Part shown: piece after piece, positions 12,518 to 64,000 of the stretch
How positions within the stretch are numbered: the stretch's first letter is position 1
Layout: the number at the start of each line of letters is the position of its first letter
Assembly (NCBI GenBank): GCA_032718475.1
Contig: JAUCBJ010003564.1
Coordinates: forward strand, 62,001-126,000
Origin: Nemertoderma westbladi
Taxonomy: Eukaryota > Animalia > Xenacoelomorpha
Length of the DNA: 64,000 bases
Reading direction: 5' to 3'
Notes under the pieces: model-generated
Seen by the model: the letters and a program-made list of their open reading frames with translations, nothing else
Told to the model about the DNA's origin: nothing
The model's database searches: none
Translations under genes and position numbers: made by a program

Positions 12518-12931
12518 GTATAAAGCTGGCGTAGATATAGTTTACGTAGTATATATTGATACGACAAGCGCGGAGGTTCTTAGAGGAAGTTATCATGGTT
12601 GGGTTGTACTCCTTTCCCTTTGTGTATAAAACCTATTTTAAGCCGTTCTTCCGCATGGTTGTGGTATCATAACATTAGAACAATATCTACTGTATTTAGA
12701 TCAGTATTGGTAAACTTATTGACGAAATCATTTGAACATCATCAGCTGGAGACAACGCACGAAGACGCCAAGCTTTATGGTATAATACCACCACCATCGG
12801 TGCAGTATCAACCACCCTCCGTGAACGCAGATTAAGATTAAGTGGGCAGTGCTCTAGAAGTAAAGACCAAACCATACAAGATCTACTTTTCTGGCAACCA
12901 ACTCATGGAAAGCGTACCCGTGGACGACCGG

Positions 12932-16963
<4,032 letters not shown>

Positions 16964-19559: not shown

Positions 19560-20121
19560 CCATAATCGACGTCGGGGTCACGAGAAGAGCACCTAAATCG
19601 CGACAAATACTTTCTAGAAATTGGTTTGTTTTTCAACACTTCAAGGTATTTCTCATAATTATAAATCCTTTTAACCTCCAAAGGTCTGCTTAAATAACAG
19701 ACATTTGGAGGAGTTACTTAACTGGCCCACCACATATTGGGCTTCAAGTCGTTTTTTAAATCTAATATGAATTCATTTTCGTGCGTACTTACTGTCTATT
19801 CCAGACTGCAGAAAATCCAGTTTCATTTAACAGGTCCCTAACTAAAGATGCCCAATTCTCATTATTCCCCAACCTGTCGCGAAGCACAGTATATACTTGT
19901 TTGAGGAGTCGTAAATACGGTATTTTAATAATTTTCAACAACTAATAATTTTCTGTGACAACTGAGAGGAAACATACCGGTCTCCCCATACAACATAACA
20001 TTTGCTGTGTTTGTTTTGACGCGTAGAATGTACTTTAGGAATTTTAGATGAACCATTTCAATGCAAAAGGCCTCGTTCCACGTTCCCCACCACACTTGAC
20101 TGCCATACTCCAGATAGGTCG
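19560..20121 (-). mobile_element. Old LINE (L2/CR1-group-like) ORF2 3' part; target of the LTR insertion
   Basis: LEYGSQVW...IEMVHLKFLKYILRVKTNTANVMLYGETGMFPL; the reading continues across the GGTCG TSD into 38751 onward. Left end is approximate. Confidence 0.8.
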
Positions 20122-22311
20122 TGATAAACAACCGCGACCTCTATACTAACAGCAGAACTGTTGAACAGACAAATACCCGTTAATATCCTTCTGTCAACCT
20201 AATAAGTTCTCGTCTAACCAATAAGACACAAAGACTGCTCTACTGTTAAGTAAAGGGGATCAGGAGCGTGCTATTACTAAATTGTAAGGGTTGCTAAATA
20301 CAAAACCGCTACTTACCGTTGGATGGCGCTAATCTGCCGTCCGCTAATATATTTTACTAAATTTACACAACTCCTGCAAAATCGCTTGTTCCTTTCTCTA
20401 CCGATTGCTCGATAGAGAGCTAACTGTTCGAATCTATGAGCCACGCGGGGATAACCAAAACAATAAACCCGAGTCGGCTCCCTAAGCTTACTTAAGACGA
20501 GTGCGAGAGGCCTTGCACTCAGAGTATTCTTACGCCTAATCCTATCACTATTAAAACACGCTATTGTCTACGTCTTTTCTAATCGCGAATTCTGGGGGTT
20601 CTCTAACGTAATGTGTGAATGCGAGAATATTTAAATAATCAAATGATACAGTAATTGTTTCTACGTGGATAGTACCGCTCTGGGTCTAAACTTGCCTGCC
20701 GCTGGCTTTAGGCCAGCAAATTACTAGCGTATTGTGCGTACCGAATAGTGCGATCTAGCTGATTGCCCGCTAATGCAAATAACCGCTCAGCGTGAATAGT
20801 TTACAGTACTCTAATTATTACCTTAGCTACTCTCCGCTATGCTGCGTACTAATTCTTAATTTTTTACTAATCAATTACAGTCACAAATATGTAACAGCGT
20901 ACTAATTACTAAGAGTTCCAGAATGCGTAATTCTAATTTATTACGCAACATGTTTCGCTAGTAATAGCCTAAATTGCCGTATTACTTTGACCTAATCAGT
21001 AACTAATTGTTGTAACTAAGAAATAGAAATCAATCAAAGAGAAAAGAGCGCCTACCTAAACATTCACAATCATAGGCACACTTCAGTAACACACCAATCA
21101 GCGTCAGCAATCACAGTTCGCAATTATGCAGTTAACTACTGTATAGCCCACAATTATGCGACTCACTATTCGTACTCCACACTCAACGTTGTAATACGCG
21201 CAGGCCTCTCCCGGATACATCTAGGTTTCCTAACTAACCCGATTCCTGCCCCCCTAATACTAAATAGAGACAAAACCTGGATCATCAGCCCCCTAGTTAC
21301 TGTATCGGCGAATGGTCTGCGTGTTACAGTGCAATTGCCCGCCCGCAACGGCGACCCCCGCCAGCGTTGCCCGCTTTGAATCCTCCGCTCTCCCCTAGTC
21401 GCTCAACCCCCCGATGTGCCCACCGCCCACTGGCACCTTAGCCCTCCATTATGCTAATAGCTACCGTAGCGGCGCATGCAAATCACAAAGTCTGACAGTC
21501 TCAGAAATCCCTTAGGATTATTGCGCAGAAAGGAATCACATAGAACCATTAATCAAAAGGTAGAAATCATAGTTCCAGTTGTAATTAGCAGTAATCGAAG
21601 GAATTAATTGAGAAACACAATCAAGAGTAATCGCACTAGCAAATCATTTCAATAAATTAATCAAAATTAGCAAATTGCAGAAAATACGCTAAAATATCCG
21701 TCAAAGGTGAATAGAGACAGCTCAGCAAGTACAAAGGTGATAGCAGGTAAGGCTCTACCGGCACACCGCCAATTTATAGGTGATCCGGATGGGGTGATGC
21801 AATAGGGTGACTCAATCGCTCTCCCATTGGCTCTCCAGTCCGCGCTAGCATTAGACCAACCTGGAAGCAGTTAGTCCAATAAGGAGGCCGGATTGTAGCC
21901 CTATTGCCCTCAAATTATTACCATATATGGTAATGGATCATGTTCCTGGCTGCTGAATGGCCAGGACAGCGTCCCTATATGCTAGCCCTATTGAAGCTAA
22001 TATCAGCAAGCACAAAAAATCCAGGGTCCGACTAAACTTGCTACCCTGGAACTATCTACATATATCCTAATACAAAATTACGTAGGTAGGGCTACATACT
22101 ATACAAAATGGATGGATTCAAAATATATGGGCGTTTCGATTTCCCTATCTAAATATCATTGCGTTATTATGCCTTATCTAAAATATTATGCTGCACAACG
22201 GACTAATATTACATACAGTATAACGGACTAATATTGTGTACAGTATAACGACTAATATTGCATACTGCATAATGACTAATATATGTGGATACAGCGCCAT
22301 ATACCGTAACA
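20122..22311 (-). repeat. 3' LTR (2190 bp)
   Basis: Direct repeat of 36572-38750; differs by about six substitutions and one 11-bp indel (ggggataacca) by eye. Preceded on the minus strand by a short purine tract GGAGCGG. Confidence 0.97.
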
Positions 22312-22800
22312 CCGCTCCAAGGGAAATCATATAATGTTTCCCTCCAATTGTAGAAGAGTATAAGGTGATGTATACAAAACAAAATAAATTTCTTCCAACT
22401 AATCTAAATACTTGATACTATAAATCCTACTATTTACAAATATTGCTATAGATATTGCATAATGAATTGCATACAAATTAAATTTACAAAATATTATCTC
22501 TCTCATTGTTAACGATTATTACATACAAATTAAATTTACAAAATATTGTTTCTCGTTCTTACTACATAATGATTACTACATACAAGATCAAATATAAAAA
22601 TTTGCTAGGGCAAGAGAAAGGAGTAAGCCAAACCCGCAGGTTTGTCTCCCCAATCACTTCCTTCGCCTCTCTCATAATATAAATTCAAAACAGCTCAACT
22701 AGTGTATATGAGTCTAGTCGAAGATTTCTAAATGCTACAATATACATCAGAGCGACGATGATGTATATATCTAGAGTCTGTCGCCCTGTGCTATAATGTA

Positions 22801-23397
22801 TCATCGACCCGCTCCTGGGTTCTTTGGGCTCGCTCCTCTCTTTCGCCCTCTTCCCAGATACACCAATCGTCCTCCAGTCGACTCCATTGACGGCGTCCGT
22901 GAGGCGTCACTCCCTGGAACCGGCGACGATGTTCCCTGAGCCCCGACAGATTCCCGGCTTGTGCTCCTTCCTCGGCCTCGTCCCAATTGTCGTGCTCCCG
23001 TGGTCGCTTCCGCCAACTCTTCCTTATGCAATTGCACACGCGCCTTCTCCGACGCTCCCTGCGCCTTGCGCTGCAATCGCTGTGCTTCTATAATAGAATG
23101 ATAGTGGTCGTCCTTGACTTGACGCTTGTCTTGGACCCCTCCTCCTGGTTCCTTCCGCGAGCCTTGAGCTCCAGCGGTCGTCGCTGTGGTCGCTGCGATC
23201 CTCTGTTCCTGTATCCTCTCAGCGGTCAATGAACCCACTGGCACATGAGTCAACAAGAATTCGTTGCGGTATTGTATAGCCGCCATCCTCCAATCACCTC
23301 GCGCGCGTACCACTTTTCTAGTCTCCGTAAATACACCCTTCGTGATGCGATCGCAAATAGCAACGAAGTTCCAGGTGTACTTGTTATCCATATTCAA
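22801..23397 (-). CDS. Element ORF4: unknown basic/low-complexity protein, possibly the frameshifted C-terminus of ORF3
   Basis: 198 aa from TTG (first ATG at 23391). The frame is open from 23526, overlapping the end of ORF3 by ~70 nt in the -1 frame. R/G/S-rich tail with an RGRKR NLS-like patch. Confidence 0.55.
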   Translation of the reverse strand: MNMDNKYTWNFVAICDRITKGVFTETRKVVRARGDWRMAAIQYRNEFLLTHVPVGSLTAERIQEQRIAATTATTAGAQGSRKEPGGGVQDKRQVKDDHYHSIIEAQRLQRKAQGASEKARVQLHKEELAEATTGARQLGRGRGRSTSRESVGAQGTSSPVPGSDASRTPSMESTGGRLVYLGRGRKRGASPKNPGAGR

Positions 23398-23456
23398 TTG
23401 TCTGAAGTATTCTCGGACTACGATAACTCCAGTGTTCTGTGGAAGGTCTTGAGCAG

Positions 23457-26400
23457 TTAGGATGAGTTCCTGATATTGTGGTAGCGATTGTAGATATGGC
23501 TCGTACGCAACATGTGTACATATGTATTAAATGGTAACCAACGCATCTGCGCTTGAATATGGTAATCAGCCACACTCTCCCACTTATCTAACATCTCCCG
23601 AAGTAGGTTAGCGCTATGGTTTTGAAAGGAATCATCTCGCAGCTGACATCTCGCGCTACGATGTCCCTTTACCCCACAATATCCACATTGAGAAATGAAG
23701 ACGGTGCACGTGTGAAACGAATGGTCGGTCTCATTACACCAACGACAGACCTTATGCGCCGCCTCTACTACAGCGTCGCACGACTTTAGATTGTGCCTTG
23801 TTCTGCCGCACAATTTGCACCTACGCGCTTGTGGAAACCAGGCCCTCTCGTATATGAGGTCTCCAATCGGTTTCGCACTTCCTTCCTTCCCAATGTCTAA
23901 TACGATGTCGTCCTCTCCGGTCAACGGTTGTCGATCCGGAACAAAGTAAACATCCTCGCCATTGTCCTCTATCTCCAATATTTCCTCCCGTGTTCGTTTC
24001 GGATATGTCTTCTCCACCGGAAGATCTACTCCGAACACCTCTACTAACGTCTCCGGCCAGCCCTCCTTAACAGGTCTATCAGCCTCCGAGTGGAAGGGAG
24101 TACCAAACCCGCGGGTTTGATTCCCGAACCACTTCTCCAAAGCTTCTGGCGTCGGATATTCCATCGACGGTCGGTCTCCCAAATCTCCGATGTTCTGTCG
24201 ATATACTCCTTCGAATATCGCTAATCCTCTCCTCACCATCGACGTATTCTCTAACGATTGGTTGAAGAACGGGGTTAAGAAACGCTTCATCACGTCGGAT
24301 TGGATTCCCCCTTTCGAGCGAACGTATTGATCTCCTCCGAATACCAATGGATGACGCTTCAAAACTCGCGCAACGATATCCGCTAATAAACAAGTCACCG
24401 TGTTCGACTCAAGCACCAAATAATATTGTAGCGACGCACGGGGTGGCGCGCAAATGTTCCAATACACTAACGCTTGCCGCTTGAAGTGGGATTTGAACTC
24501 CGCTCCCGGTGGCGTGTTGTATTCGCCATACGCCTCCTCGTACTTCTTCTGCGTCTTTAACTTAAAGTCCCAATTATACAACAAGTGTGCTATAAAGCCC
24601 ATACCAGTCTTGGCAGAGTTGGGATACTCCCTATAAATTCCAATATCCTGTGCCCATAGCAACAATAGCTTGGTGTCGACAAACGGTCTCGGCAATCTAT
24701 CTTCCAGATCAGTCATGGCGTTGAAGTCGCTCTCCAAATCGCTCTGGACTCCCGATCCCACCTTGACGTAATCTTGGTTGAGAATAGCCTCTCTAACTTT
24801 CTTGGGTAGCATCCTGGCGTCGATACGTTCCGCTCCGTGCATACCTCCTCGCCTGCATACCTCCAAAATCTGCTCCCTAGGATCCTTCCCCTTCCGATAT
24901 TGTGTCGTTATGATGGGCTCCGGTCTCTCTCGATCCGCCCTCACACGCATAAACACATGAGTCACACCATCGGCCGCACGAATTTGAATACACTTGCTGG
25001 TCAAACATTCCTGATGGGACCCTCCTTCATTGTCGTAGAACATCACCCTCCAATCCTGCAGTGATTCCTCCGTTTTCCTCCACTGACGCTGAATCTCGTC
25101 TGATGGGGTCCACATGCGCTCGATAGCCTTGTGGTCATCATATCGGGTATAAGAACCCTTCCTCCTCAGCCACGTCTGGTCTACCTCCTCGTCGTCTGGG
25201 AATGTAGCCACCGCGACCCATACCTTGATGTACTTATCCAACCATCCAAATAATTTGCTCTCCTTCCCCGGAGCTCCAATCTTATCCAATGTGTCGTAAT
25301 CTGTGATCTGCATTGGGACATCACGCAAGAACTTCGCGCATAAAACTTCCCGTAGACAGTCAACGTTCCAATGATCCGCCATTCTTACCATCGGCAAGAA
25401 TCGTATCGCTTCTCGCGACTCCGGATGATCTACTAATATCGCAGGTTCGGTGCCGTCGGAATAATACACCGGTCGGGGTTGAGATACGACCTGTGGAACA
25501 AATCCGGTCACTCTCCTCGTCTCCTCTTGATGTCTATCCGCGGTCTTATTATACTCCGCTATCCTGTTCTCAAATAACTCTTTCGCCTTCGCCGCTCGCT
25601 CCTCCTGCCGCAACGCGTCTATGTCGTCCTGATGCTCAGGCGTGAGGCTTCTCGCTCGGTGAGGTGAAGTAAACGCAGTCCAGGGACTCGAGAGCTCCAA
25701 ACCCGCGGGTTTGGTACCCGAGTCCCGCGCCGCTTCGCGCCGCGCCTCTAGATGCTTATAGGCTCGGTACAGCGAAATGGCCGCTGCCGTCTCTATCAAA
25801 CTGGGTGTCGAACAGGGTTTAATCTCCGTATACGGATCTAATGTCGTAACGGTCGGCGTAATGGGTCTCGGAGGTCGCTTTCCGCTAAAGTCGATACTGA
25901 TCATCGGGTTGCTCATCGGGTAACCTCCCTCGTTGTATCTAAGGAACTGGTGAGCTGGACATCGCGTTAATATCGGTTCCGGATGTTGCTCGTCTAATCG
26001 GTCGGGAATCGCCACGTCTTGCTTATTCATGCATTCACCACACTTGTAGAACAGCTTGTACACGCTGAAGACTTTCGGCGTCTCCTGATCCTCGCCTCGA
26101 GTCCTCCGGTATAGATGCATCCCGTCGAACTGATCTCGGATTGCAGGTAGAGGTTCTTCGTGTCGTAAATACATATTCATATGGTACAGTCGTGCGATCT
26201 CCTCGTCCGGATCTGCGCTGATGTCACATACGTCCAAAGCAAAGTCGTAGGGATACCGCGTGCGATACTCTCTCCGCAAAACTTCCATCCGGTCCCCCAA
26301 CGCTCTCATTCTTTCCCTCCGTAATTCCTTATCATAAGTCGGCTTGTATTTCCCGTTTAATTCCATCACGGACCGCCCATGGTAGTAAACGTTAGAGTCT

Positions 26401-26486
26401 TTACATCCTGGTCGCGCGAATGGTAGCTCCGCCTCCTCTCTGGCAGTAAATCCTCTGCGCGGTTGCGCTCTAATATCCTTCTCCAT
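23457..26486 (-). CDS. Element ORF3: 1009-aa protein with DEDDy-like 3'-5' exonuclease domain and three C-terminal CCHC zinc knuckles
   Basis: ExoI VMFYDNEG (D485/E487) followed by IQI; LPKKVREAILNQDYVKVGSGVQSD (ExoII, D583); FVDT; GMGFIA; ExoIII-like QYYLVLE (Y689..E693). Knuckles CKLCGRTRHNLKSC, CRWCNETDHSFHTC, CGYCGVKGHRSARC. No signal peptide or TM segment seen. Confidence 0.85.
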   Translation of the reverse strand: MEKDIRAQPRRGFTAREEAELPFARPGCKDSNVYYHGRSVMELNGKYKPTYDKELRRERMRALGDRMEVLRREYRTRYPYDFALDVCDISADPDEEIARLYHMNMYLRHEEPLPAIRDQFDGMHLYRRTRGEDQETPKVFSVYKLFYKCGECMNKQDVAIPDRLDEQHPEPILTRCPAHQFLRYNEGGYPMSNPMISIDFSGKRPPRPITPTVTTLDPYTEIKPCSTPSLIETAAAISLYRAYKHLEARREAARDSGTKPAGLELSSPWTAFTSPHRARSLTPEHQDDIDALRQEERAAKAKELFENRIAEYNKTADRHQEETRRVTGFVPQVVSQPRPVYYSDGTEPAILVDHPESREAIRFLPMVRMADHWNVDCLREVLCAKFLRDVPMQITDYDTLDKIGAPGKESKLFGWLDKYIKVWVAVATFPDDEEVDQTWLRRKGSYTRYDDHKAIERMWTPSDEIQRQWRKTEESLQDWRVMFYDNEGGSHQECLTSKCIQIRAADGVTHVFMRVRADRERPEPIITTQYRKGKDPREQILEVCRRGGMHGAERIDARMLPKKVREAILNQDYVKVGSGVQSDLESDFNAMTDLEDRLPRPFVDTKLLLLWAQDIGIYREYPNSAKTGMGFIAHLLYNWDFKLKTQKKYEEAYGEYNTPPGAEFKSHFKRQALVYWNICAPPRASLQYYLVLESNTVTCLLADIVARVLKRHPLVFGGDQYVRSKGGIQSDVMKRFLTPFFNQSLENTSMVRRGLAIFEGVYRQNIGDLGDRPSMEYPTPEALEKWFGNQTRGFGTPFHSEADRPVKEGWPETLVEVFGVDLPVEKTYPKRTREEILEIEDNGEDVYFVPDRQPLTGEDDIVLDIGKEGSAKPIGDLIYERAWFPQARRCKLCGRTRHNLKSCDAVVEAAHKVCRWCNETDHSFHTCTVFISQCGYCGVKGHRSARCQLRDDSFQNHSANLLREMLDKWESVADYHIQAQMRWLPFNTYVHMLRTSHIYNRYHNIRNSS

Positions 26487-27255
26487 TATGCCTCGTGTAT
26501 ATACATATATATATATCCCAATAAGTGCCGTTACGTAACCAATTACACTGTGGGTAAATCAGTTAGATGTCGCCGAAAGACAGACCTCCCGAACCCCCCC
26601 CCCCCCCCCCGCCTTCCAGCAGTTCAGGTTCGACTCTCTAGATCCCGTCTCTTCCTAACTAACTATCCTCTAACTTATTCCCATGCATAGCGCAAAAACT
26701 TTGGAGATAAACTGGCCGTGACCAACTCACTTTTTGATGCCCAAACTACTCCCATTACTCGTACTAAACTACAGTAATTAGAAAGGACTATAGCCACAAT
26801 ACTCGACTATACCAAACCCACAGGTTTGATAATCGAACATCGCACATCCTGCAAACTACTGAGTGGGGTCCATGTACGCCTCTGGTGCTACTAACCTTTA
26901 GCACCTTAGTTGTACTGTTGGCACCAATCCGTGGAAGTTGCTAAACTCAATTTACACTCCTACGTAATATAGCCGTCACCATGGTTTCTAAATGCTATTT
27001 TCCAGGCTTCACGACTTTTCAAATTACTGTTTATCTATAGACGAATTCTAAAACGCGTCTATACACAGCGTCTGGAATTGTCTTGGGTTCACTTTTCTAA
27101 TTTTAAAATTTTCTAATTTTCCAAAAATTTTGAGAATAAAATTTTGTTTTGATACCCACCAGACAAAACTCAACGCAAATCACCACAACCCCGCTCCTAT
27201 GCATTTCCTTGTATTTGCATACGAGGAATGCATACGAAGTGAGTTGCGTCCAACA

Positions 27256-29613
27256 CTAATTCTGTTTTGAGGCAGGAGACAAATTATAATCTCCCGTCTC
27301 GATACGTGTCTCCTCTAATAACACGATATCTTGGACCGGTCGGTCCAAGGTGTGTAAACCATTAGTTTTACACTTCTTTGGGTGCGGACACTTGCACCTA
27401 ATTTTCACAGTGACTGTGCGCACTATGTTTTGCACGTCTGGGTGTGTGTGCAAGATCACTCCAGTCTCCCAATACTTTCTCTTGACAATCGGTTCGGTTA
27501 TCAATACGTAATCTCCCCTTTGGAGACTCCGAACCGTTTTGTACCACTTTGTTCTGGTGGATATGGTGGGAAGATAGTATTCCCGCCAATATTCCCAGAA
27601 TGTGTACGCTACTAATTGAGTCACTTTCCAGCTCTTACGACTATATAGGTCGGCACTAATGGGTTCTGATGCCGGCACAAGAAATGCTGGACTCTGCATT
27701 AGCAAATGATTCGGCGTTAATGCAACACCGTCTGGCAACATAGCTATCGGCCTCGAGTTTAGGGTATGCTCGATTTCAATGAAAGCTGTGACCAGTTCGT
27801 CGTCGGTAAGTTGTTTGTTCACAGGCAACGTTTTAGCAATGGCCTGCTTTACAGAGCGAACCAAACGCTCCCAACTTCCTCCTCTCCAAGGACTTTCTGG
27901 AGTATTAAATCTCCACTCTACTCTTTGCGGCAAAAGTGCTGCAGAAATTTCTTTATTCTGTGCCGCTTTATGAACTGCGTTCAACTCGCTATTCCCTCCG
28001 ACAAAGTTTGTACCCTTATCGGAGTAGAACGCCTTTACTAGTCCTCTCCTGGCCATAAATCTCTTTAAGGCCAGGAGCAGAGATTTGGTCGACATGTCTG
28101 CCACACGCTCAATATGTATGGCTCTACTAGCCATGCATGTCAGTAGCAGACCCCATCGCTTGTGGGTCAGCCGTCCACTCTTTGCCTCAATCGGACCAAA
28201 ACAATCCACCCCTGTGTTCGTAAAGGGTGGGTCATATGCCTGCACTCTCGCTTCCGGGAGTTCAGCCATCTCCTGTTCCAATACTCTGGCGTTCACTCTC
28301 TTGCAAACCAGACAGGCGTCGTACATAGTGCCTACTGCCCTGCTTGGCTGCAATAGAATGAATCGCTGTCTCGCTGCCGACAAACAGTGTAACCTTCCCG
28401 CGTGATGTAACCTCTTGTGTATATCCCATAGAATCGCTCTTTGCAATTCTATTGGGTGACTAGGGATTATCACTGGGAACCGAAACTGTGAGTTTATGTC
28501 GACAGTCTGGATTCTCGATCTATGACAAATCAAACCCTTATGGATTAATGGACTCCATTTTCTAAGGGGTTTATAGAGAACTGGTCGTTGAGCCGATAAT
28601 AGATGGAATTCTTTGGGGAAGGCACACATTTGATAATGTTTCAAATGCTTTAATTCCGCTTGATCAATCTCATCCTCTGTCAGAGGTTGTTTCAATTTCT
28701 GAATTCGCTCACTATTGGTGCTCAATGGTTCTCTCAAATGTTCCGAATGTTTTAAACAAAGGTACGAAACGTATCGGCTTAACCACACAGTTCTTTTACA
28801 AATTGTCAGCCAAGAGGCAGACGAATTTAGTAATTTGTCATAAACACTGCATGACTCTAATGCCAGCGACGGTTGTCCGCTAACCAATGGAAGTTTTGAA
28901 TCCAAACCCGCAGGTTTGGAAACCAAAGGCTCCATTGTGTCGGTCATTTTCTGTCCGTCACTTACCAACTGTGACTGTCGTCTAGTCTGTAAGGGTGGTT
29001 TTACGTCATAACTTACCCTTCCGGATCTAGTAGTCACGTAAGTCTGTTGGTCTGACAAGTCTCCGGGCCGCTCCAATGACTCTTCAGGCTGCTCCAATGA
29101 CTCTTCAGGCCGCTCCAATGACTTAAGTTTGGCTTTAGACTTTGACTTAGAGGCTTTCTCCACCTTGACTTCTGCATCTTCAGGCATCGGATTGGTCACT
29201 ATCTTTAGTCGCTCTGGCCAATGTTCCTGTGTCCTCGTTAGAAAATCAGGTCCATGCAACCAAAACTCCTGCGACTCTTCCTGACAGAATTCCGCCGGCA
29301 TTGCACCTCTCGAAGTTATGTCGGCCGGGTTCAACACTCCCGGACAATGTCTCCATTGTTCCTTCGTCGAAAAGTCAACTATCTGAGCGCGTCTATTGGC
29401 CACAAATGTCTTTAGTGCAATATTGTCGGCCGCAATGTATACTAACACCAAGGGTGCGTCCGTCCAATAGAATAAGGTCAATGTCGTGTCTAACTCCTCA
29501 GTTATCTGCTTACTTACCTCGACCGAAACTACTGCCGCCTGTAACTCTGCACGAGGGACAGTCATGTATTTGACCGGCATCATCTTTGATCTAGAAGTTA
29601 CAAAGGCCGTCTC
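27256..29613 (-). pseudogene. pol: pol 3' part: truncated RNase H, integrase (HHCC + DDE) and BEL C-terminal domain
   Basis: SRSKMMP...VPRAELQAA...YWTD...FVANR...WRHCPG..NPAD..SRG; H...HAG...CLVCKR; GVDCFGP, YSDKGTNFVG, PWRGGSWERLVRSVK; FWEYWREYYL...RPVQDIVLL. Confidence 0.93.
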
Positions 29614-32134
29614 AAACCCACTCTACGTCGGACAACCAAATTTTCCTCATGCACGCTCGTGCCTGTAATATTACCGGACTGATAAAGTTCATCGGGTCAA
29701 ATAGTCTACTTAATGTCGATAAGCAAATCCTCTTAGTCAAAACTTTGTCTGGGCTACTGGGCTCAAATCTAACTCTTACCTGGAACTTATCTGAGTTCGG
29801 GTTCCAAGCGAGTCCCAGTACTCGCGCCATGGGGATTGGTTCTACCCCCAATTCTATGTCTCCGCTCCCACGATCTTTCACCGGGAACGATTCTAATAAG
29901 GCCTCCGAGTTCGTAGTGAACTTGGTCAGAGGAAATCCCCCTGTAGCCAAGCACTCCTGCAGGCCGTGAGCCACTTCTATGGCTTGTTCCGCCGTGTCCT
30001 TGGACACCAATCCGTCGTCCATGTAGAAGTTTCTCAAGATGGACTCGATAACCTCTACTGGATACTTACCAATCTGGGCTGTTGCCGTTTTCTTTAAAAC
30101 GAACAGCGTGCCATTCGGACTATCGCGGGCGCCAAATATCCTAACGTACATTTGGTATGTAACCACTGGGCCGGATAAGTCTTCATTCTCGTACCAGAGA
30201 AAGCGAAGGCTATCCTGGTCTGCCTTACAGGCTCTTACCTGGTGGAACATCGCCTCGATGTCACAAGTAAATGCGAATCGCCACTGTCTAAAACGTAACA
30301 GTATTCCAATCAAATAGTTATTCAGGTTGGGACCATCCATCAACTCTGAATTCAGGGACATACCTCTATAGACTGCTGCACAGTCGTTGACTACTCGGAC
30401 TTTGTCTGGCTTGTCGGGGTGAGTCACATAATGGTGTGGAAGGTAATAAGTCTGGTCTGTCACTAAGTCAGGGTCCTCTACCTTCCCAGCAAATCCCTTG
30501 GCGAAATAGTTGTTGATCTGGGCGCAATACTTCTCCCTAATGCCTGGATTCTTCAACAACCGAGCCCTTACTCCGTTTAATCTTTTCAAGGCTAAGTTGT
30601 AGTTGTTCTCCAACTTAGGAGGTTGTCGACGCCACAACATTCCAACTTCAAAATGTCCAGTCGGTAGTAGACGTATGGTGTCTTCCATCATCTCCAGCGA
30701 CCGTTTCTCATCAGTAGACATGGCTAGGTCATATCCACCGGGTTCCATTGCGTCCCTATCCAGCCATTCGACGGTTCTGGCTCCTGTCTCGAGGTCCTGG
30801 CGTATCAATTCCTTCTGTAACTCCTCCTCACTGTACTGGAAAATGTCTAGGTCTCGATATTTAGCCACCTGACCCTCCACTATGTCGGTATAAGTCAAAA
30901 CGTTAGTCAAATAGGTAGCGTGGGCCGCTGAACCAGACCCACGGGTCTGATAACAGTAGTCCTCGGGTTCACTATCCGTCCGGTCATTATGAAGTGGTTC
31001 CGACAACCTAACATTATCGGGAATCAACTCCTCGTCCGACTCGCTAAAGTCACTATAATGGTCAATACAGGTTCTCCTAAACTCGTCTATGTCTGGTGGT
31101 TCTACTAACGGTGGTTGAGTTATAGGCTGTAATTCGTCATATCTGTCCATTGGCTTGTCGCCACCTGTAAACTCATAAGACATGGGTACTCTTGTATACC
31201 AACCTAATATAGTCCTATGGGCATGTGGTCCATTGACATGTGGCTCAGCTGGTCTCGTTTCCCATATCTGGTGTGCGATCAGCTGTTCTGCACCAATCAA
31301 CATAGAAACATTCCTATAACCTACCTGGTGTCTGGGTATCCTGAGCTTGTCAAAATACTCCTGTGCTATGGGACTCATCGGTGGCACCTTACCTAACTGC
31401 CTGCCGAATCCCTTCATAGCTAGACACTTAAATCCGTCCAATGGCAAAGCTTTCCGTTCTTGTCGAGTGTGTTGGTCTCTCGGAAGTAGGGAATCTAGTT
31501 CTACCGAAATTCTGTGTCCCTTGAGGTCACCTACCCCGTGCATAGACTTCAACTCTATTTGGATCTCCTCGGCGTCCTGGAAGCTAGAAACAGCTCTCGC
31601 CACTTCCTCGTCGATATAAGATAATGTGGACGCAGTGTCCAACATCACATATATTCGCTTTGATCCCTTATCGCCAGTAAGTTTCACCGGAATCACGCTA
31701 AATATTTCCGACGTGGCCGATGATAAATACGTCCGCGCGCTGGTCGATGAACTATCCGCGGTGAAACCTTGGCAGGTCACTTCTCTCGCGCTCGACTCGC
31801 CATCCTCGTCCGACGAACCTGGTTGGTAACCATCGTCCTGGATGCCGGTATACGTATTCCTCCTTATCGATACGGGTTCTTTGCTCCCCTTCCTGTGAGG
31901 ATTTCGCTGTAAGTAACGGTCCGTTGGGGTATGGAAATCCGCATGTAGCAACTTGTGATGTAGTCTGCCGCATTCCATGCATCCGTCCTTGCTGTTCGGG
32001 CACTGCCGCCGTACATGACCTGGCGCAAGACATGCCCAACAGGTGTCCAATGTCCGCACTTGAACTCTTCTCTGTTCCGAATTTAATTCTTTGAACCGTC
32101 TGCAACTATCTAACTTATGGTCGTCAGATCTTAC
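29612..32134 (-). pseudogene. pol: Nucleocapsid knuckles, aspartic protease and reverse transcriptase of the BEL element
   Basis: CWACLAPGHVRRQC and CMECGRLHHKLLH; protease MLDTASTLSYI; RT YYLPHHYV..KVRVVND..SLN..L..GP...DIEAMFHQV...FGARDSP...FYMDD...FDP. Same frame as gag, separated only by one TAG at 32135-32137. Confidence 0.93.
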
Positions 32135-35100
32135 CTACTTTAGTAAACAGTATTGGCAACCTACAAATCCATCCGGCAACTCCTGTTGCTTTAACCTGGG
32201 TCTATCTAACCGCTCACCTGACCATACTCGCGAGTCTGATCTAAAGGCTGGGGTACTCGAATTATATCTGTCTACTGAGTTAAATGTCACAGTGGTCCTG
32301 TCATCGTCAAAACTTACCATAGACTTACCGGTAACAGGTTTAGACTCTCTCATATTCTCCTCTGAGAAGTTTGATTTCATCTCTGCTACTGCGTCTGTGG
32401 CTATCATGTCATGAATATGCTGAAGTGTCAATACTTTACCTTGGCCCTCCAACTTATTCTCTAATTTGCGCCATTTCTGTCGATAACGCATGTTTAAACG
32501 TCTTATTACGCTCTTTAAGACTTCGGCGTGATCACCATGATGAGGTAGATTCACCGTCCTCAAGATGTCCAATGCGTTCGAAATAGCGTTCGCTAAGTTC
32601 AACAGCTCTAACGGAGTTGTAATCCTTCCGCCCTTACCCAAGTCTTCTACTATCGACTGCGCCATCTTGGTTTTATTCCCGTAGATGTCACTAAGCGTCT
32701 TCATTGCTAACTCGAATGCTCTTTCATTGCCGACGAAGTTGTCAGCAATGGCTCTAGGTTCTCGATGGAGCATCTGAAGCAAATAGTTGAACTTCTCGTT
32801 GGGAGTAAAGGTGCTGTTGGTTAGCTGCTCGTCGACATAGGTTTTGAAAGTCCTCCAATGCTTATGGTTGCCCATAAACTTCTGGGGTTGTTGCGTCGGC
32901 AGTCCTTGCCTAGCAGCAAACTTACCTATGTCCCTAAGGGTTGCGTCGTTCCGGGTTAACAAATGGTTTAGTTCCGCAGGGTTGTTAAGTCTGGTCCTTT
33001 CCCGGTGGTTCCAACTTACCTGCTCCGCGTCGGTCCTTCTTTCCTTATAGTTTCGGGACTTCTGACGTCTCATTTCTTCCTCTTCATCGCTTGACTCGGT
33101 GTCAGTCCTTAGCGCTCGCGATGATTTGCGCGCCGAGGCCCTGATCCAAGCCTCCTCAATAAATTTCTCGGCCGAATTTTCGAAATTGGGATTATGAATA
33201 TTCGGGACAGGCGTCCTTACCTGAGGTCTATGTGGTATAGTCTCCTCCGATATGCGTACTCGTTGACTAGGCTGGACTTTATCTAACTCAGGCCTGCTAG
33301 GATAAGAATTACTCCTTACCTGGGCTGCTTCCTTTAACCGTAGGTTGCTAAGCATGTCCGTTATAGGTTGGATGTGCGGCGATATAGCTTGCGCTAAACT
33401 AGCACTTAACTCATCCCTCGTAATAAATTCCTGGCTAGGGTTCTGTTGTATAGTCGGCTCTATCTGAGTAATCCGCTGTCTCTCATATGATCCCTCTTCC
33501 GGTTTAACCCGGAAGTTCTCCGTCGAACTGGGTCGGCGCTCCGTCCGCGTATTCCAAACCCGCGGGTTCGGTTCGCCAAGTACTCGTCCCGTTGGAGTTT
33601 CTTCTCTAAATTCTTCGTTGTCGCGTTCGGTATATAGTGGTGCTGTGTTCCGATGACGTAGATTCTGCGCGATAGGTGAAGCACTAATACCAACTGGCGT
33701 GCGATATGTAGAGAACGGTTTAGCGATCCGTGTACTCGTAATAGCTGGACCGGGTATAGGAATTCTGGTCGTCGTCGACTCGCGTATGGTCGGAGTTCTC
33801 GCTTCCTGTTCGGCCTTCTGCAGTGCGAACAGTTCTCGCAACTCTGTCCCTACACTCGCCCCACATTCTTCGATCATTCGCATCCCCTTCTCGGCGATTT
33901 CATTCGCCTTCCTAGTCCGTTCTTCGCTCTCTAAACTTAATCTCGCACTTTCCAACTGCGCCAGTTTACGTTCTTCTTCTTCCCTCGCTCGTCTCGCTGC
34001 GCCCTCTTCTTCCACACGCGCCCTTTCTTCATACAACGCTTGTTGCTCTTTCTCGATCTCGAGTTCGCGTTCCTTGCGTTCGCGTTCAAGTCGGAGTTCG
34101 CGTTCTTTCTGTTCGCGTTCAAGTCTGAGCTCGCGTTCTTTCTGTTCGCGTTCTTTCTGTTCGCGTTCAAGTTGGAGTTCGCGTTCAAGTTGGAGTTCGC
34201 ATTCCTTCTGTTCGCGTTCCGCTTGCCCACGCTTACCTTTCTCTTCCAGCTCGCGCAACTTCGCATCTAACTTACGTGTTCGCTCCCTTTCCCGCTCAGC
34301 TTCCTTCCGTGCTTCCGATGCACGCAAAACTTCCGCCTGTTGTTCGTCCAGTCGGCGTCTTCTCTCCTCCGCCGAGTTGTGCGAAACAAGGGATCTAGCA
34401 CATATAACCTTACCTCGCGCGTGACTAACCTGGGAATCGCCACTGTCTCTGGATGCGTCGTCGGGTGGAGTCAACGTCCTCTGTTGGATGTTCTCCGTCG
34501 TCGGTAGCACCTGGCCTGGTACCACCACTCCATTCTGCATCAGCCAGCTAGTAACTTCCCTCTGATAACGGCGCTCTTCTTTGTCTTGGATCTCTTCTCG
34601 CTCCACTAAGTCTCTCAACTCTGCATCACTCACCTGAGTCGCCTGCGTATGTGATGCCCATAGCAGCCAGTTCTCCGTCCTAACTCGTCGGAATCGCTCC
34701 GATAACTCGCGGTGCTCCAACAAGGCTGCTAAAACCCTGTCGTAAATCCTCGTCGCCACGTCGCTCGACTGAGACTCTACTGCCTTCTTCGCTAGGACTG
34801 CAAGCTCCTCCGTCTGCTTGAATAACGCTGAGTTATATCCTCTTCTAATCTCTACTAACTCTACCCTCCCGATGTTCGCTGAGTCAGCTAACATCTTCCT
34901 TACCTTGTCCGTCGTCCGAGTTATATGTCCGGCATGCGCGCGAAGTTTCTTCTTTATCGCAATATCAAGTTCTCTCTCGCTTACCTGACTCACACTTGGT
35001 GGACTTGAAGGAATATTTCGGGAACTACGGGTACTCCTAACAGCCGTCGGGACCACGGCACTTACCATACCCACAGGTCTGGAAACCGGGCTCCGGGCTC

Positions 35101-35380
35101 TCGCTTCTGCTACACTACTCTCCCTATCACTCACCTCTGTCTGGGCTGCCGTACAGTCCTTCCTTACAGTAGCGGTAGGGGATCCTAATACTATTACTTG
35201 AGGTTGTTGTTCTTCCTCACTAGTCACTGTCTCGTCCTCCTGTTCACTTACGTCAGCGTCGCTCGCTGCGTCGTCATAGTCGGCATTGTCATCAACAGTA
35301 ATGTTTACGCTATCGTCAGTCGGCGGTCCAGCCGCCGTCTCATAGCTGTCCTCTAGTGCCTCCTTGTCTGAGACACTCAT
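32135..35380 (-). CDS. gag: Gag of the BEL element with long acidic and coiled-coil N-terminal extension
   Basis: 1081 aa; BEL capsid-like motif LP....KFMGN...WRTF...EKFNYL...A...L...YGN; ERE-rich heptad repeats; ends inside the first zinc knuckle (CQYC). Confidence 0.9.
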   Translation of the reverse strand: MSVSDKEALEDSYETAAGPPTDDSVNITVDDNADYDDAASDADVSEQEDETVTSEEEQQPQVIVLGSPTATVRKDCTAAQTEVSDRESSVAEARARSPVSRPVGMVSAVVPTAVRSTRSSRNIPSSPPSVSQVSERELDIAIKKKLRAHAGHITRTTDKVRKMLADSANIGRVELVEIRRGYNSALFKQTEELAVLAKKAVESQSSDVATRIYDRVLAALLEHRELSERFRRVRTENWLLWASHTQATQVSDAELRDLVEREEIQDKEERRYQREVTSWLMQNGVVVPGQVLPTTENIQQRTLTPPDDASRDSGDSQVSHARGKVICARSLVSHNSAEERRRRLDEQQAEVLRASEARKEAERERERTRKLDAKLRELEEKGKRGQAEREQKECELQLERELQLEREQKEREQKERELRLEREQKERELRLERERKERELEIEKEQQALYEERARVEEEGAARRAREEEERKLAQLESARLSLESEERTRKANEIAEKGMRMIEECGASVGTELRELFALQKAEQEARTPTIRESTTTRIPIPGPAITSTRIAKPFSTYRTPVGISASPIAQNLRHRNTAPLYTERDNEEFREETPTGRVLGEPNPRVWNTRTERRPSSTENFRVKPEEGSYERQRITQIEPTIQQNPSQEFITRDELSASLAQAISPHIQPITDMLSNLRLKEAAQVRSNSYPSRPELDKVQPSQRVRISEETIPHRPQVRTPVPNIHNPNFENSAEKFIEEAWIRASARKSSRALRTDTESSDEEEEMRRQKSRNYKERRTDAEQVSWNHRERTRLNNPAELNHLLTRNDATLRDIGKFAARQGLPTQQPQKFMGNHKHWRTFKTYVDEQLTNSTFTPNEKFNYLLQMLHREPRAIADNFVGNERAFELAMKTLSDIYGNKTKMAQSIVEDLGKGGRITTPLELLNLANAISNALDILRTVNLPHHGDHAEVLKSVIRRLNMRYRQKWRKLENKLEGQGKVLTLQHIHDMIATDAVAEMKSNFSEENMRESKPVTGKSMVSFDDDRTTVTFNSVDRYNSSTPAFRSDSRVWSGERLDRPRLKQQELPDGFVGCQYCLLK

Positions 35381-36571
35381 AGTCTAAATAATGTTTGCCT
35401 TCCGGCAAAAATATCTCGCAAAAGTTCGAGATATAATTATAATTTAACCGAAAATACGGTCAAATTAATTGTCAAATAATCAGTTGGTCCAAAATGTCAA
35501 AATAAATTCGCAATGCAATATTGTGAATTTAATGGGGTATATAGTTATAGCAAATACTAGCACAATATTTAAACAAAAATATTATTATATAGCTACTATA
35601 TAGTATTAAATACCGGTATAGCACAAAATAACTTTGAATCTAATACAAAATATTCAAAATATACTTGCCGCCCGAATATTTCTAATTTTATACATATATA
35701 GCTCTAATCAACGTAATTTTAATTTCAAATATTATATGTATCCACTAGCGCGTGGCTACATCTTCGGGTTGCGACTCTCTCTAACTCTCTCTCTAACTTG
35801 AGCGATTCAAAAAACCATGGCCGGCTAAACCTAAATATCCTAACTAATAAATTGAGTTCAGCTTCGCAGTTAAACAACCGATAATTTTTTACTGCTTCCA
35901 CAAACACAATGGTGCCAACAGAACAACTAACCTTGTTTGCTGTGAGATTCCACGTCCGCGTCCAAAGATTCAGGCCCTTCGCTGATTGCAAACCGAACCC
36001 GCAGACCCACACGAACCCCAAACTCAGAAGTTCCGTCTTGCCATGTATCTCCAGATGGTATAAAATAACTAAGCGGTTACCTAACATACCGGTACAAAAC
36101 TCTAGAATTTTACAAAATAATTTTGACCGAAACTGAATTCTCGCAAACCTAGCTAATAATTTTCAAAAAACTTACTAATTACAATTGCCCTAAGGCCTAA
36201 GGAACTGCTGTATTCGCAATTAGTAAAACGCACTACTGTACATCCACTGTATGCAGTACAGTAAGTAAAACAGTACACCAACCTAACAGCCTAATGATAC
36301 TGTGTGTGGTACGGCAAAACAAATGTCCTTTCTACCGTACGCAGTAACAGCAATCAGCCTAATGTACTACTGTACTATTGTACGCAGCCAGTGAATACAG
36401 TAATCTAAACTAACAGCCTAAAATACACTATGTGTTCTACCGTACGCTAGCCTATAGCCTACAGCAGACGATCACGTGCTCCAACTTATTACTTAATACT
36501 GTGATACTACTAATCAGCCTAAGAATACTCTATTGACCGCTGCAAGCAACAGCCAGTAATACGCATATTAC

Positions 36572-38750
36572 TGATAAACAACCGCGACCTCTATACTAAC
36601 AGCAGAACTGTTGAACAGACAAATACCCGTTAATATCCTTCTGTCAACCTAATAAGTTCTCGTCTAACCAATAAGACACAAAGACTGCTCTACTGTTAAG
36701 TAAAGGGGATCAGGAGCGTGCTATTACTAAATTGTAAGGGTTGCTAAATACAAAACCGCTACTTACCGTTGGATGGCGCTAATCTGCCGTCCGCTAATAT
36801 ATTTTACTAAATTTACACAACTCCTGCAAAATCGCTTGTTCCTTTCTCTACCGATTGCTCGATAGAGAGCTAACTGTTCGAATCTATGAGCCACGCAAAC
36901 AATAAACCCGAGTCGGCTCCCTGAGCTTACTTAAGACGAGTGCGAGAGGCCTTGCACTCAGAGTATTCTTACGCCTAATCCTATCACTATTAAAACACGC
37001 TATTGTCTACGTCTTTTCTAATCGCGAATACTGGGGGTTCTCTAACGTAATGTGTGAATGCGAGAATATTTAAATAATCAAATGATACAGTAATTGTTTC
37101 TACGTGGATAGTACCGCTCTGGGTCTAAACTTGCCTGCCGCTGGCTTTAGGCCAGCAAATTACTAGCGTATTGTGCGTACCGAATAGTGCGATCTAGCTG
37201 ATTGCCCGCTAATGCAAATAACCGCTCAGCGTGAATAGTTTACAGTACTCTAATTATTACCTTAGCTACTCTCCGCTATGCTGCGTACTAATTCTTAATT
37301 TTTTACTAATCAATTACAGTCACAAATATGTAACAGCGTACTAATTACTAAGAGTTCCAGAATGCGTAATTCTAATTTATTACGCAACATGTTTCGCTAG
37401 TAATAGCCTAAATTGCCGTATTACTTTGACCTAATCAGTAACTAATTGTTGTAACTAAGAAATAGAAATCAATCAAAGAGAAAAGAGCGCCTACCTAAAC
37501 ATTCACAATCATTGGCACACTTCAGTAACACACCAATCAGCGTCAGCAATCACAGTTCGCAATTATGCAGTTAACTACTGTATAGCCCACAATTATGCGA
37601 CTCACTATTCGTACTCCACACTCAACGTTGTAATACGCGCAGGCCTCTCCCGGATACATCTAGGTTTCCTAACTAACCCGATTCCTGCCCCCCTAATACT
37701 AAATAGAGACAAAACCTGGATCATCAGCCCCCTAGTTACTGTATCGGCGAATGATCTGCGTGTTACAGTGCAATTGCCCGCCCGCAACGGTGACCCCCGC
37801 CAGCGTTGCCCGCTTTGAATCCTCCGCTCTCCCCTAGTCGCTCAACCCCCCGATGTGCCCACCGCCCACTGGCACCTTAGCCCTCCATTATGCTAATAGC
37901 TACCGTAGCGGCGCATGCAAATCACAAAGTCTGACAGTCTCAGAAATCCCTTAGGATTATTGCGCAGAAAGGAATCACATAGAACCATTAATCAAAAGGT
38001 AGAAATCATAGTTCCAGTTGTAATTAGCAGTAATCGAAGGAATTAATTGAGAAACACAATCAAGAGTAATCGCACTAGCAAATCATTTCAAGAAATTAAT
38101 CAAAATTAGCAAATTGCAGAAAATACGCTAAAATATCCGTCAAAGGTGAATAGAGACAGCTCAGCAAGTACAAAGGTGATAGCAGGTAAGGCTCTACCGG
38201 CACACCGCCAATTTATAGGTGATCCGGATGGGGTGATGCAATAGGGTGACTCAATCGCTCTCCCATTGGCTCTCCAGTCCGCGCTAGCATTAGACCAACC
38301 TGGAAGCAGTTAGTCCAATAAGGAGGCCGGATTGTAGCCCTATTGCCCTCAAATTATTACCATATATGGTAATGGATCATGTTCCTGGCTGCTGAATGGC
38401 CAGGACAGCGTCCCTATATGCTAGCCCTATTGAAGCTAATATCAGCAAGCACAAAAAATCCAGGGTCCGACTAAACTTGCTACCCTGGAACTATCTACAT
38501 ATATCCTAATACAAAATTACGTAGGTAGGGCTACATACTATACAAAATGGATGGATTCAAAATATATGGGCGTTTCGATTTCCCTATCTAAATATCATTG
38601 CGTTATTATGCCTTATCTAAAATATTATGCTGCACAACGGACTAATATTACATACAGTATAACGGACTAATATTGTGTACAGTATAACGACTAATATTGC
38701 ATACTGCATAATGACTAATATATGTGGATACAGCGCCATATACCGTAACA
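36572..38750 (-). repeat. 5' LTR (2179 bp)
   Basis: Direct repeat of 20122-22311; minus strand reads TGTTAC...TTATCA. Confidence 0.97.
38211..38369 (-). promoter_or_regulatory. Candidate LTR Pol II promoter
   Basis: TATAAAT at 38217-38211, AP-1-like TGACTCA at 38247-38253, CCAAT at 38269-38265, CArG box CCATATATGG at 38360-38369. Spacing is plausible for U3, but these are motif matches only. Confidence 0.5.
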
Positions 38751-39040
38751 GGTCGAATTGGCATGTTGAACAATAATATTAATGTATTACATGTAATGTT
38801 GTTACCAAAATTATGGAGTTAACGGGACATCCCAAAAAGGGAATTTTCTGCCCTCTCAGCCCAATTTTCTTGCTATTTTGAAAAATGAACGGAACTGCTG
38901 ATAGCAATGCCCAAATAAAAATAGCTCTGGACCACTAATTCTTTGTCTTTGTAAAACCATTTTTTTTGGTAAATTTCACTCCTAATTCTGAATACAACAA
39001 TTTTTGACTTCGTGCGGTTAAGTTCAAGACCACAAAAATC
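38751..39040 (-). mobile_element. Old LINE RT fragment (continuation of 19560-20121)
   Basis: GLELNRTKSKIVVFR...KWFYKDKELVVQSYFYLGI...LILLFNMPIRP, with stops and frameshifts. Confidence 0.8.
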
Positions 39041-55185: not shown

Positions 55186-55472
55186 ATAATTTATTATTGG
55201 TGTTATGGGTGAATGAGTGGTTTCATATGAGCGGAGGTCACCAGTTCGATCCCACCTGGGCGTCATTGCCGACTTTGCAAAAACTGTGCCCAACAAAAAG
55301 TTATAAATCAAGAGATTTGGTATCCTCTGCAGTTAGAGCCCAGCCTGGACATAGACTTCCATAACAGTAGGTATAAGACAATAGGAATATAGACATATTA
55401 CTGTATTACAAAACAGGTCTGAAATAATTAATTAAGATTGTTGTTTAATTAGAGAATATTTTGTTCACTCAC

Positions 55473-56668: not shown

Positions 56669-56689
56669 GAACGTGTTGTAGTGTTATGA

Positions 56690-62328: not shown

Positions 62329-64000
<1,672 letters not shown>

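What the first reader, a model, noticed from the sequence alone, without database searches (positions are those of the whole stretch)
23457..26486. BEL/Pao retrotransposon carries a DEDDy 3'-5' exonuclease / triple zinc-knuckle gene in the env position
Seen: an uninterrupted 1009-aa ORF between integrase and the 3' LTR, on the same strand and inside the TSD-bounded element. It has DxE (FYDNEG), KVGxGxxxD, FVD and Y-x3-E motifs in the order and spacing of WRN/RNase D/Mut-7/EXD-type exonucleases. It also has three CX2CX4HX4C knuckles and a possible N-terminal CxxC..CxxH site, with no signal peptide or TM helix. Established: extra ORFs at this position in BEL elements are usually env-like, and viral DEDD exonucleases act in proofreading (coronavirus nsp14) or dsRNA destruction (arenavirus NP). 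Host Mut-7/Nibbler and EXD1 act in small-RNA pathways. Inference: this is an accessory nuclease or RNA-binding module, possibly for piRNA/siRNA counter-defence, proofreading for an unusually large genome, or primer processing. The last acidic residue is E rather than D, so it may be a pseudo-nuclease. I have an unverified recollection of an RNase D-like domain in a nematode Cer element, so novelty must be checked.
Basis: partly seen in the sequence, partly recalled or inferred. Interest (0 to 1): 0.88.

Follow-up and report, generated by a model that had tools for sequence, protein, structure and literature searches.

The report
BEL retrotransposon carrying exonuclease-knuckle gene
An unusually long (18.6 kb) BEL/Pao jumping gene in an animal genome carries, where an envelope gene would sit, a conserved extra gene that likely encodes an RNA-trimming enzyme with three zinc knuckles; this copy is broken, similar cargo is published for rotifer elements of another lineage, and a role against host RNA defences is inferred, not shown.

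Summary
A 1009-codon ORF (26486-23457, minus strand) lies between integrase and the 3' LTR of an 18.6-kb BEL/Pao element with a 5-bp target duplication. It has three CCHC knuckles and no transmembrane helix. It is a real family gene: sibling copies differ at 17 of 19 listed sites synonymously.

The exonuclease call is likely but not proven. The protein alone has no Pfam or PDB exonuclease hit, and both AlphaFold models failed. Four distant relatives share the exonuclease-knuckle layout and the acidic residues, and their profile hits the EXD2 structure (E about 5e-4 to 9e-4). The last acidic residue is D or E in the family, so E alone does not make a pseudo-nuclease.

Correction: this copy is dead (stop in Gag, break in RNase H). 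ORF3 also looks broken near its 3' end, because the next frame (22801-23526) is under purifying selection.

Novelty is lower than claimed. DEDDy ORF3s are published for rotifer gypsy-like elements (2017). A recalled nematode BEL precedent could not be checked. Verdict: new variant of a known kind.

The parts
38751..38755 (.). 5-bp target-site duplication, 5' side of the element
   Evidence: same 5 letters as 20117-20121
36572..38750 (-). 5' LTR, 2179 bp, TG..CA; one TATAAA at 38217
32135..35383 (-). gag part (DUF1759); an in-frame stop at 32135-32137 falls inside the first Gag zinc knuckle
   Evidence: (E 2e-9)
29612..32134 (-). remaining Gag knuckles, protease (DTA), RT (YMDD), start of the Peptidase_A17/RNase H region
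27256..29622 (-). rest of the RNase H region and integrase (HHCC, DD(49)E, DUF5641), in another frame. Peptidase_A17 positions 1-40 and 107-161 flank the frame change, and no D[AG]S motif is left
23457..26486 (-). ORF3, 1009 aa as it stands in this copy
   Evidence: purifying selection
25077..26486 (-). ORF3 N-terminal ~470 aa: no family match, absent from the four relatives, but coding (11 of 12 listed differences synonymous)
24387..25049 (-). predicted DEDDy-like 3'-5' exonuclease domain, aa 480-700 (D485, E487, D583, Y689, E693); 5 of 5 listed differences synonymous
23646..23819 (-). three CX2CX4HX4C zinc knuckles, aa 890-947
22801..23526 (-). second open frame (241 codons) overlapping the ORF3 end; likely the true C-terminal part of the family gene, out of frame in this copy
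   Evidence: 18 of 22 listed differences synonymous, 3 of them before the first Met at codon 46; siblings depart from this copy at 23514-23523
20122..22311 (-). 3' LTR, 2190 bp
20117..20121 (.). 5-bp target-site duplication, 3' side of the element

Best explanation
ORF3 is a conserved accessory gene of a multi-copy BEL/Pao family that likely encodes a 3'-5' exoribonuclease of the DEDDy type, whose three zinc knuckles would grip single-stranded RNA and which would most likely act on host small-RNA guides, their precursors or host-added RNA tails to protect the element. Shown: position inside the element, many diverged copies, purifying selection, the knuckles, and acidic residues shared with four distant relatives. 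Predicted: the DnaQ fold, and two-metal catalysis with E in the last position. Inferred: translation from a separate, probably spliced mRNA; RNA rather than DNA as substrate (by analogy with trypanosome RNase D, where tandem CCHC fingers hold the RNA for the exonuclease); and counter-defence as the purpose. The window's own copy is dead, and its ORF3 is probably truncated.
For: Selection: 17 of 19 listed differences synonymous, 5 of 5 in the nuclease domain. Thousands of contigs at 80-100% likeness lie on the region in two DNA runs of two studies. All 4 of 4 relatives found among 1.84 billion representatives have the layout exonuclease-like domain, spacer, knuckles. D583 and D604 are invariant in 5 of 5, and ExoI DxE is in 4 of 5 rows; the fifth has a DxE in an upstream frame. 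Profile hits to EXD2 (6K17): E 8.8e-4, the only PDB hit with the window domain included, and E 4.7e-4 with relatives only. Atlas: 24 of 30 hits in a PF01612 set for aa 460-760; the best hit of P0002 is a PF01612 + zf-CCHC cluster (score 0.86, a lead only). The knuckle part of the profile hits TbRND 7C42 (E 1.2e-4) along with Lin28 and nucleocapsids. TbRND's fingers bind the RNA substrate (PMC7797062, passages). ORF3 is separate from Gag-Pol, and the same cargo type occurs in Penelope-like elements too (PMC5408684), which fits a job outside LTR-specific replication (inference).
Against: The window protein alone has no Pfam match at E up to 1 and no exonuclease hit in PDB. Pfam PF01612 matches only 1 of 5 aligned domains, weakly (E 0.047). 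AlphaFold failed (pLDDT 34.4 and 39.8). The local profile match covers aa 558-697 only, not ExoI. ExoI aligned in 2 of 3 MAFFT modes, and the ExoIII E/D column in 1 of 3. The Atlas feature count (161) is under the tool's 170 guide. The last acidic residue is E, not D. Nothing here identifies a substrate, and the closest solved match, EXD2, does not favour small-RNA substrates in particular. The genomic context of the four relatives could not be read.
Confidence: 0.4

Rival explanations
1. It is an active nuclease that helps replication inside the particle. It would trim the 3' end of a primer or of cDNA, or remove mismatches for an unusually long genome, and the knuckles would bring it onto the genomic RNA.
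For: The element is 18.6 kb against 4.2-10 kb in the ICTV profile. No TGG follows the 5' LTR directly, so priming looks non-canonical. The knuckles resemble nucleocapsid fingers. Rodriguez et al. suggest 3'-end processing of element RNA (PMC5408684).
Against: ORF3 is not fused to Pol. Rotifer elements with the same cargo type have short LTRs (159-551 bp) and are not described as giant. A self-priming match between the post-LTR sequence and the LTR was no better than shuffles (9 nt; 9 of 100 shuffles reach that).
Confidence: 0.28
2. It is a catalytically weak or dead nuclease fold used as an RNA-binding scaffold or decoy, like EXD1 or Maelstrom in the piRNA pathway.
For: E instead of D at ExoIII in the window and P0002; P0003 has C for the ExoIII Y. 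There is a long insertion after the first strands. An EXD1-like cluster is the second Atlas hit for P0002 (0.77, a lead only).
Against: All four acidic positions stay acidic across proteins only 21-25% identical. EXD1 and Maelstrom are described as inactive derivatives (PMC5408684), and such proteins usually lose these residues (recalled).
Confidence: 0.2
3. The middle domain is not a DEDDy nuclease at all, or ORF3 is neutral captured cargo.
For: No direct family hit for the window protein, and no usable model.
Against: Strong synonymous bias rules out neutral cargo. Profile and embedding searches point to the same family by different methods.
Confidence: 0.08

Closest known systems
DEDDy exonuclease ORF3 of bdelloid rotifer LTR retrotransposons Juno and Vesta, shared with Athena/Terminons (Rodriguez, Kenefick, Arkhipova 2017, PMC5408684; parts 1-3 of 5 read, i.e. 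the main text, plus figure legends)
   Same: Non-env ORF3 after pol; RNase D-like DEDDy domain with one D-to-E change; no TM domain; function untested.
   Different: Those are rotifer lineages outside BEL/Pao (gypsy-like: recalled) with LTRs of 159-551 bp. Their motif is DEED, here it is DEDE. No tandem CCHC array is described for their ORF3 (only a Cys-His-Cys motif in two families). The gene here is over 1000 aa with an unknown N-terminal half. Selection on the DEDDy ORFs was not tested there. Sequence kinship was not testable.
Trypanosoma brucei RNase D (TbRND; PDB 7C42 series; PMC7797062, passages read)
   Same: 3'-5' exonuclease domain followed by tandem CCHC fingers that bind the RNA substrate; called a very unusual combination in that paper.
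   Different: A cellular guide-RNA trimmer with four fingers on a short linker. Here there are three knuckles about 190 aa from the nuclease domain, in a mobile element. The profile match to 7C42 lies in the fingers, so orthology is not shown.
EXD2 (PDB 6K17) and the WRN/Mut-7/EXD group of DEDDy exonucleases
   Same: Best solved-structure sequence match to the nuclease profile; ExoI and the KVG-x-G-x3-D block align.
   Different: Weak match (E 5e-4 to 9e-4) that covers ExoI-ExoII only; no knuckles in that chain.
Env-bearing BEL/Pao elements (Tas, Cer7, roo, mosquito BEL with chuvirus-like glycoprotein; PMC554778, PMC13524379, PMC8742986)
   Same: A third gene between integrase and the 3' LTR.
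   Different: Those third genes are membrane fusogens; this one has no TM helix and has nuclease and knuckle motifs.
Nematode Cer element with an RNase D-like domain (recalled only, possibly in Malik, Henikoff and Eickbush 2000; not verified)
   Same: If the recollection is right: BEL/Pao with an exonuclease and a Cys-His motif downstream of integrase, the same architecture.
   Different: Unknown. The paper is not held, and searches for it found nothing relevant.

Membership tests
BEL/Pao (Belpaoviridae) | LTRs with TG..CA ends and a short target-site duplication | tested here: met
BEL/Pao (Belpaoviridae) | Pao-specific domains DUF1759, Peptidase_A17, DUF5641; order PR-RT-RH-IN | tested here: met
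   (all three above their curated cut-offs)
BEL/Pao (Belpaoviridae) | Integrase DD(49)E spacing and triple Cys-His Gag box, as in Sinbad | tested here: met
   D..E spacing 49 against PMC554778; three Gag Cys-His boxes, the first cut by a stop
BEL/Pao (Belpaoviridae) | tRNA primer-binding site right after the 5' LTR (descriptive in the ICTV profile) | tested here: inconclusive
   no TGG directly after the LTR, a TGG 16 nt on; no host tRNA set to compare
BEL/Pao (Belpaoviridae) | Placement in an RT phylogeny | not testable with these tools
   no reference BEL sequences could be fetched; PDB search with the RT part gave no hit
DEDDy 3'-5' exonucleases | ExoI D-x-E | tested here: met
   D485/E487 align with DxE of 3 relatives and in 2 of 3 modes; needs an insertion; outside the local HMM match
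DEDDy 3'-5' exonucleases | ExoII aspartate | tested here: met
   D583 invariant in 5 of 5, all modes; aligns with EXD2
DEDDy 3'-5' exonucleases | ExoIII Y-x3-D | tested here: not met
   window has Y689-x3-E693; relatives E, D, D, D in the genafpair mode only. Filed as DEDDy-like (DEDE variant), not as a canonical member
DEDDy 3'-5' exonucleases | DnaQ / RNase H-like fold | tested here: inconclusive
   models at pLDDT 34.4 and 39.8; Foldseek and VIA-align uninformative
DEDDy 3'-5' exonucleases | Metal-dependent 3'-5' activity | not testable with these tools
   needs an assay
Rotifer Juno/Vesta DEDDy ORF3 | DEED motif in a Juno/Vesta element | tested here: not met
   ExoII is D and the carrier is BEL/Pao
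Rotifer Juno/Vesta DEDDy ORF3 | Sequence kinship with that ORF pool | not testable with these tools
TbRND-type RNase D | Exonuclease domain plus tandem CCHC fingers | tested here: met
   (architecture only)
TbRND-type RNase D | Homology over the nuclease domain | tested here: inconclusive
   7C42 is matched in the fingers; the nuclease-only profile did not list it
env-like ORF3 | Transmembrane anchor / fusogen homology | tested here: not met
   maximum hydropathy 1.34; no Pfam match

The most novel reading that the evidence does not exclude
A widespread, deeply diverged family of exonuclease-triple-knuckle proteins is carried by giant BEL/Pao elements as a retrotransposon-encoded suppressor of RNA silencing. 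It is an active RNase, built like trypanosome RNase D, that removes piRNA/siRNA guides or the host-added 3' tails that restrict element RNA, and it has not been described in BEL/Pao.
Probability: 0.17. Interest if true: 0.85.

Novelty: new variant of a known kind. Interest (0 to 1): 0.5.

Why it matters
Rotifer work left open whether retrotransposon-borne DEDDy nucleases do anything. This family adds evidence of purifying selection, a second superfamily (BEL/Pao), and an RNA-binding knuckle array that points to RNA substrates. If the protein counters small-RNA silencing, it would be an enzymatic counter-defence gene of an animal retrotransposon. The element is also nearly twice the upper size given for its family.

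Tried and rejected
Fold: two AlphaFold jobs on 5-row alignments failed. Foldseek gave no match at E up to 0.001 and VIA-align none at Z 5 or more; these say nothing either way.

More relatives: three word-index protein searches found nothing new. One search did not even return the alignment's own members, so sensitivity was low.

Genomic context: 4 scans of viral contigs, 1 of genome contigs and 1 of metagenome contigs with the window protein found no locus. One search returned only the 2486-nt contig of P0005 (L001), too short to show pol. No whole genome is held. Linkage of the relatives to BEL pol is therefore open.

Expression: no RNA holder was listed on record. Run X4, guessed to be RNA, has 4 contigs on the region; not used as evidence. 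Summed contig depth over ORF3 is about half that over pol, but the tool says this is no copy number; not used.

Self-priming: not above shuffles; the LTR-junction fold has z -0.55.

Origin of the knuckles by duplication of the element's own Gag: no blastp support (best E 0.57, not in the knuckles). The homologue tail profile did not match the downstream frame, so that frame's link to ORF3 does not rest on homology. Rfam and ARAGORN found nothing in the window.

Literature: ten searches found no BEL/Pao exonuclease report, and no data on a D-to-E change at ExoIII. Malik 2000 is not held. Repbase, Dfam, GyDB pages and subscription papers could not be searched, so absence from print is not established. 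No supplements were opened.
Full report
1. The element. Self-comparison shows two LTRs, 20122-22311 and 36572-38750, 99.2% alike. They have TG..CA ends, 6 substitutions and one 11-nt indel, and the same 5 bp on both flanks. The element reads on the minus strand and is 18,629 bp long with a 14,260-bp interior. Pfam gives DUF1759, Peptidase_A17, Integrase_H2C2 and DUF5641. The integrase D..E spacing is 49, as reported for Sinbad (PMC554778, passages). It is a BEL/Pao element, far larger than the 4.2-10 kb and 0.2-1.2 kb LTRs of the ICTV profile (PMC8742986, whole text). It lies in an intron of a host gene with a PAS domain whose exons read like an eag-type channel (recalled motifs), so the host is an animal. 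This copy is dead: a stop lies inside the first Gag knuckle. At the frame change near 29612-29622, Peptidase_A17 jumps from model position 40 to 107, and no D[AG]S motif remains.

2. The observation. ORF3 runs from 26486 to 23457, 1009 aa, and all motifs are at the stated places. There are three exact CX2CX4HX4C knuckles and no hydrophobic stretch above 1.34. The protein alone has no Pfam match at E up to 1 and only weak PDB rows, including Lin28 knuckles.

3. It is a family gene under selection. Six public runs of four studies hold the stretch; four were laid. In runs X1 and X3, 5171 and 2492 contigs lie on 22700-26600, of which 596 and 423 are under 90% alike. The tool showed only its best-supported differences, 40 of 966 and 40 of 193. 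I classed those inside the frames, leaving out one row in a stop codon and two rows in the overlap at 23521 and 23523. In ORF3, 17 of 19 are synonymous, against an expected share of 0.22, or 0.34 for transitions (p 6e-10 and 7e-7); the shifted frames give 3 of 19 and 0 of 19. The two non-synonymous sites are carried by nearly all contig depth in X1 and X3, so they look private to this copy. This is a small, support-ranked sample, not a formal dN/dS, but it rejects the neutral-pseudogene alternative.

4. ORF3 is probably cut short here. The frame 22801-23526 overlaps the ORF3 end. It shows 18 of 22 synonymous differences (shifted frames 4 and 1 of 22), and 3 of 3 lie before its first Met at codon 46. 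All four relatives have a WGF-aromatic motif after the knuckles. The window protein lacks it, and the profile alignment stops at about aa 984. Sibling contigs depart from this copy at the same place (loose ends in 8 contigs of X3 at 23516; differences at 23514-23523 in X6). I infer that the family gene continues through the downstream frame and that this copy is broken there. Against: the relatives' tail profile does not match the downstream frame, and a programmed frameshift or splice is not excluded.

5. Is it an exonuclease? phmmer over 1.84 billion representatives found 4 proteins (E 9.5e-7 to 6.2e-4). All are unnamed, in clusters of 1-2 members, and share an exonuclease-like domain, a variable spacer and the knuckle array. 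In the domain alignment D583, D604 and K642 are invariant, and D485/E487 align with DxE in three relatives; the fourth has its DxE in an upstream frame. A profile of the relatives alone scores the window protein 62.4 bits against at most 3.5 for 500 shuffles, over aa 558-697 (partly circular, since the relatives were found with this protein). Across three MAFFT modes ExoII held in all and ExoI in two; the ExoIII column read E,E,D,D,D in one. The domain profile has one PDB hit at E up to 10, EXD2 (6K17, E 8.8e-4), and the relatives-only profile finds it at E 4.7e-4. The Atlas puts 24 of 30 hits in a PF01612 set (score 0.91, 161 shared features, below its 170 guide), and for P0002 ranks a PF01612 + zf-CCHC cluster first (0.86). 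Pfam alone is weak: 1 of 5 domains, E 0.047. Both structure predictions failed (pLDDT 34.4 and 39.8), so the fold searches are uninformative. I put a DnaQ/DEDDy-like fold at about 0.9. It is a DEDE variant, not a canonical DEDDy member.

6. How it likely works. The acidic residues are kept across proteins about 21-25% identical, which favours an active site. The pairing with tandem CCHC fingers matches trypanosome RNase D, where the fingers hold the RNA for a two-cation exonuclease (PMC7797062, passages; 7C42 is hit through the fingers). ORF3 is separate from Gag-Pol and 770 nt downstream, so it is likely made from its own mRNA (inference; expression not shown). I commit to an RNA 3'-trimming enzyme used against host small-RNA silencing or tailing (0.4). 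Rivals are a replication helper for primer or cDNA ends (0.28), a catalytically dead RNA-binding decoy (0.2), and no nuclease fold or neutral cargo (0.08). The substrate step is inference only. The N-terminal 470 aa are coding (11 of 12 synonymous) but unexplained.

7. What is known. Rodriguez et al. 2017 (PMC5408684; main text read in parts 1-3 of 5, legends as passages) describe DEDDy ORF3s in rotifer Juno and Vesta LTR elements and in Athena elements, with DEDD changed to DEED, no TM domain and untested activity. Later papers repeat this (PMC6431247, PMC5718144, PMC6338049; passages); PMC6338049 calls the domain a well-known accessory domain of LTR elements. Word look-ups for 'exonuclease' in BEL/Pao surveys and related papers gave no occurrence (PMC3118150, PMC554778, PMC3013669, PMC2774666, PMC8220671, PMC13524379, PMC7264820; passages). 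One C. elegans paper had an irrelevant occurrence (PMC11662393). Ten searches found no BEL/Pao case. Malik 2000 is not held, and repeat databases and supplements were not searched. Earlier AI notes of this scan report RRP6-like ORF3s in gypsy elements of other genomes and self-priming BEL elements; these are leads only. The self-priming test here was negative, and no look-alike of this locus was on record.

8. Verdict. The feature is real and selected, and likely a DEDDy-like nuclease with an RNA-binding knuckle array. The kind of cargo is already described. New, as far as I could check, are the BEL/Pao carrier, the triple-knuckle architecture, the DEDE motif, the size of gene and element, and the evidence of selection. 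The context of the distant relatives, the fold and the activity remain open. New variant of a known kind; interest 0.5.

Noticed in passing
window minus strand, exons near 55470-55700, 45400, 2350-2400 and 170: Host gene: a PAS domain exon (PAS_9, E 2e-8) and further exons that read like an ether-a-go-go-type potassium channel (recalled motifs). The element lies in an intron, in the same orientation.
   Followed up: partly
window 36555-36575 (-): No canonical tRNA site right after the 5' LTR; an 8-bp hairpin spans the LTR end instead. The self-priming test was not above shuffles.
   Followed up: partly
window ~26595-26612 (-): A run of about 16 G upstream of the ORF3 start; many contigs end or join here. 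Possible central purine tract or G-quadruplex; untested.
   Followed up: no
window 22312-26593: One contig in run X3 joins across the whole ORF3 region (table 5c), suggesting that ORF3-less derivatives exist; other internal deletions appear in single contigs.
   Followed up: no
window 20122-22311 and 36572-38750: LTRs of 2.2 kb and an internal region of 14.3 kb, well beyond the 0.2-1.2 kb and 4.2-10 kb in the ICTV profile.
   Followed up: partly
L001:257-571 and 546-2405: The P0005 relative is itself split: its ExoI DxE lies in an upstream frame.
   Followed up: partly
window 56682-57452 (+): Fragment of a non-LTR-type reverse transcriptase (RVT_1 E 1.3e-5, DUF6451).
   Followed up: no
window 9600-12300, 12900-15200, 39200-40200, 42800-44800, 62200-64000: Several large tandem arrays (62/83-nt units, a 4-nt microsatellite of over 2 kb, and 33-nt, 63-nt and 18-nt units).
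   Followed up: no
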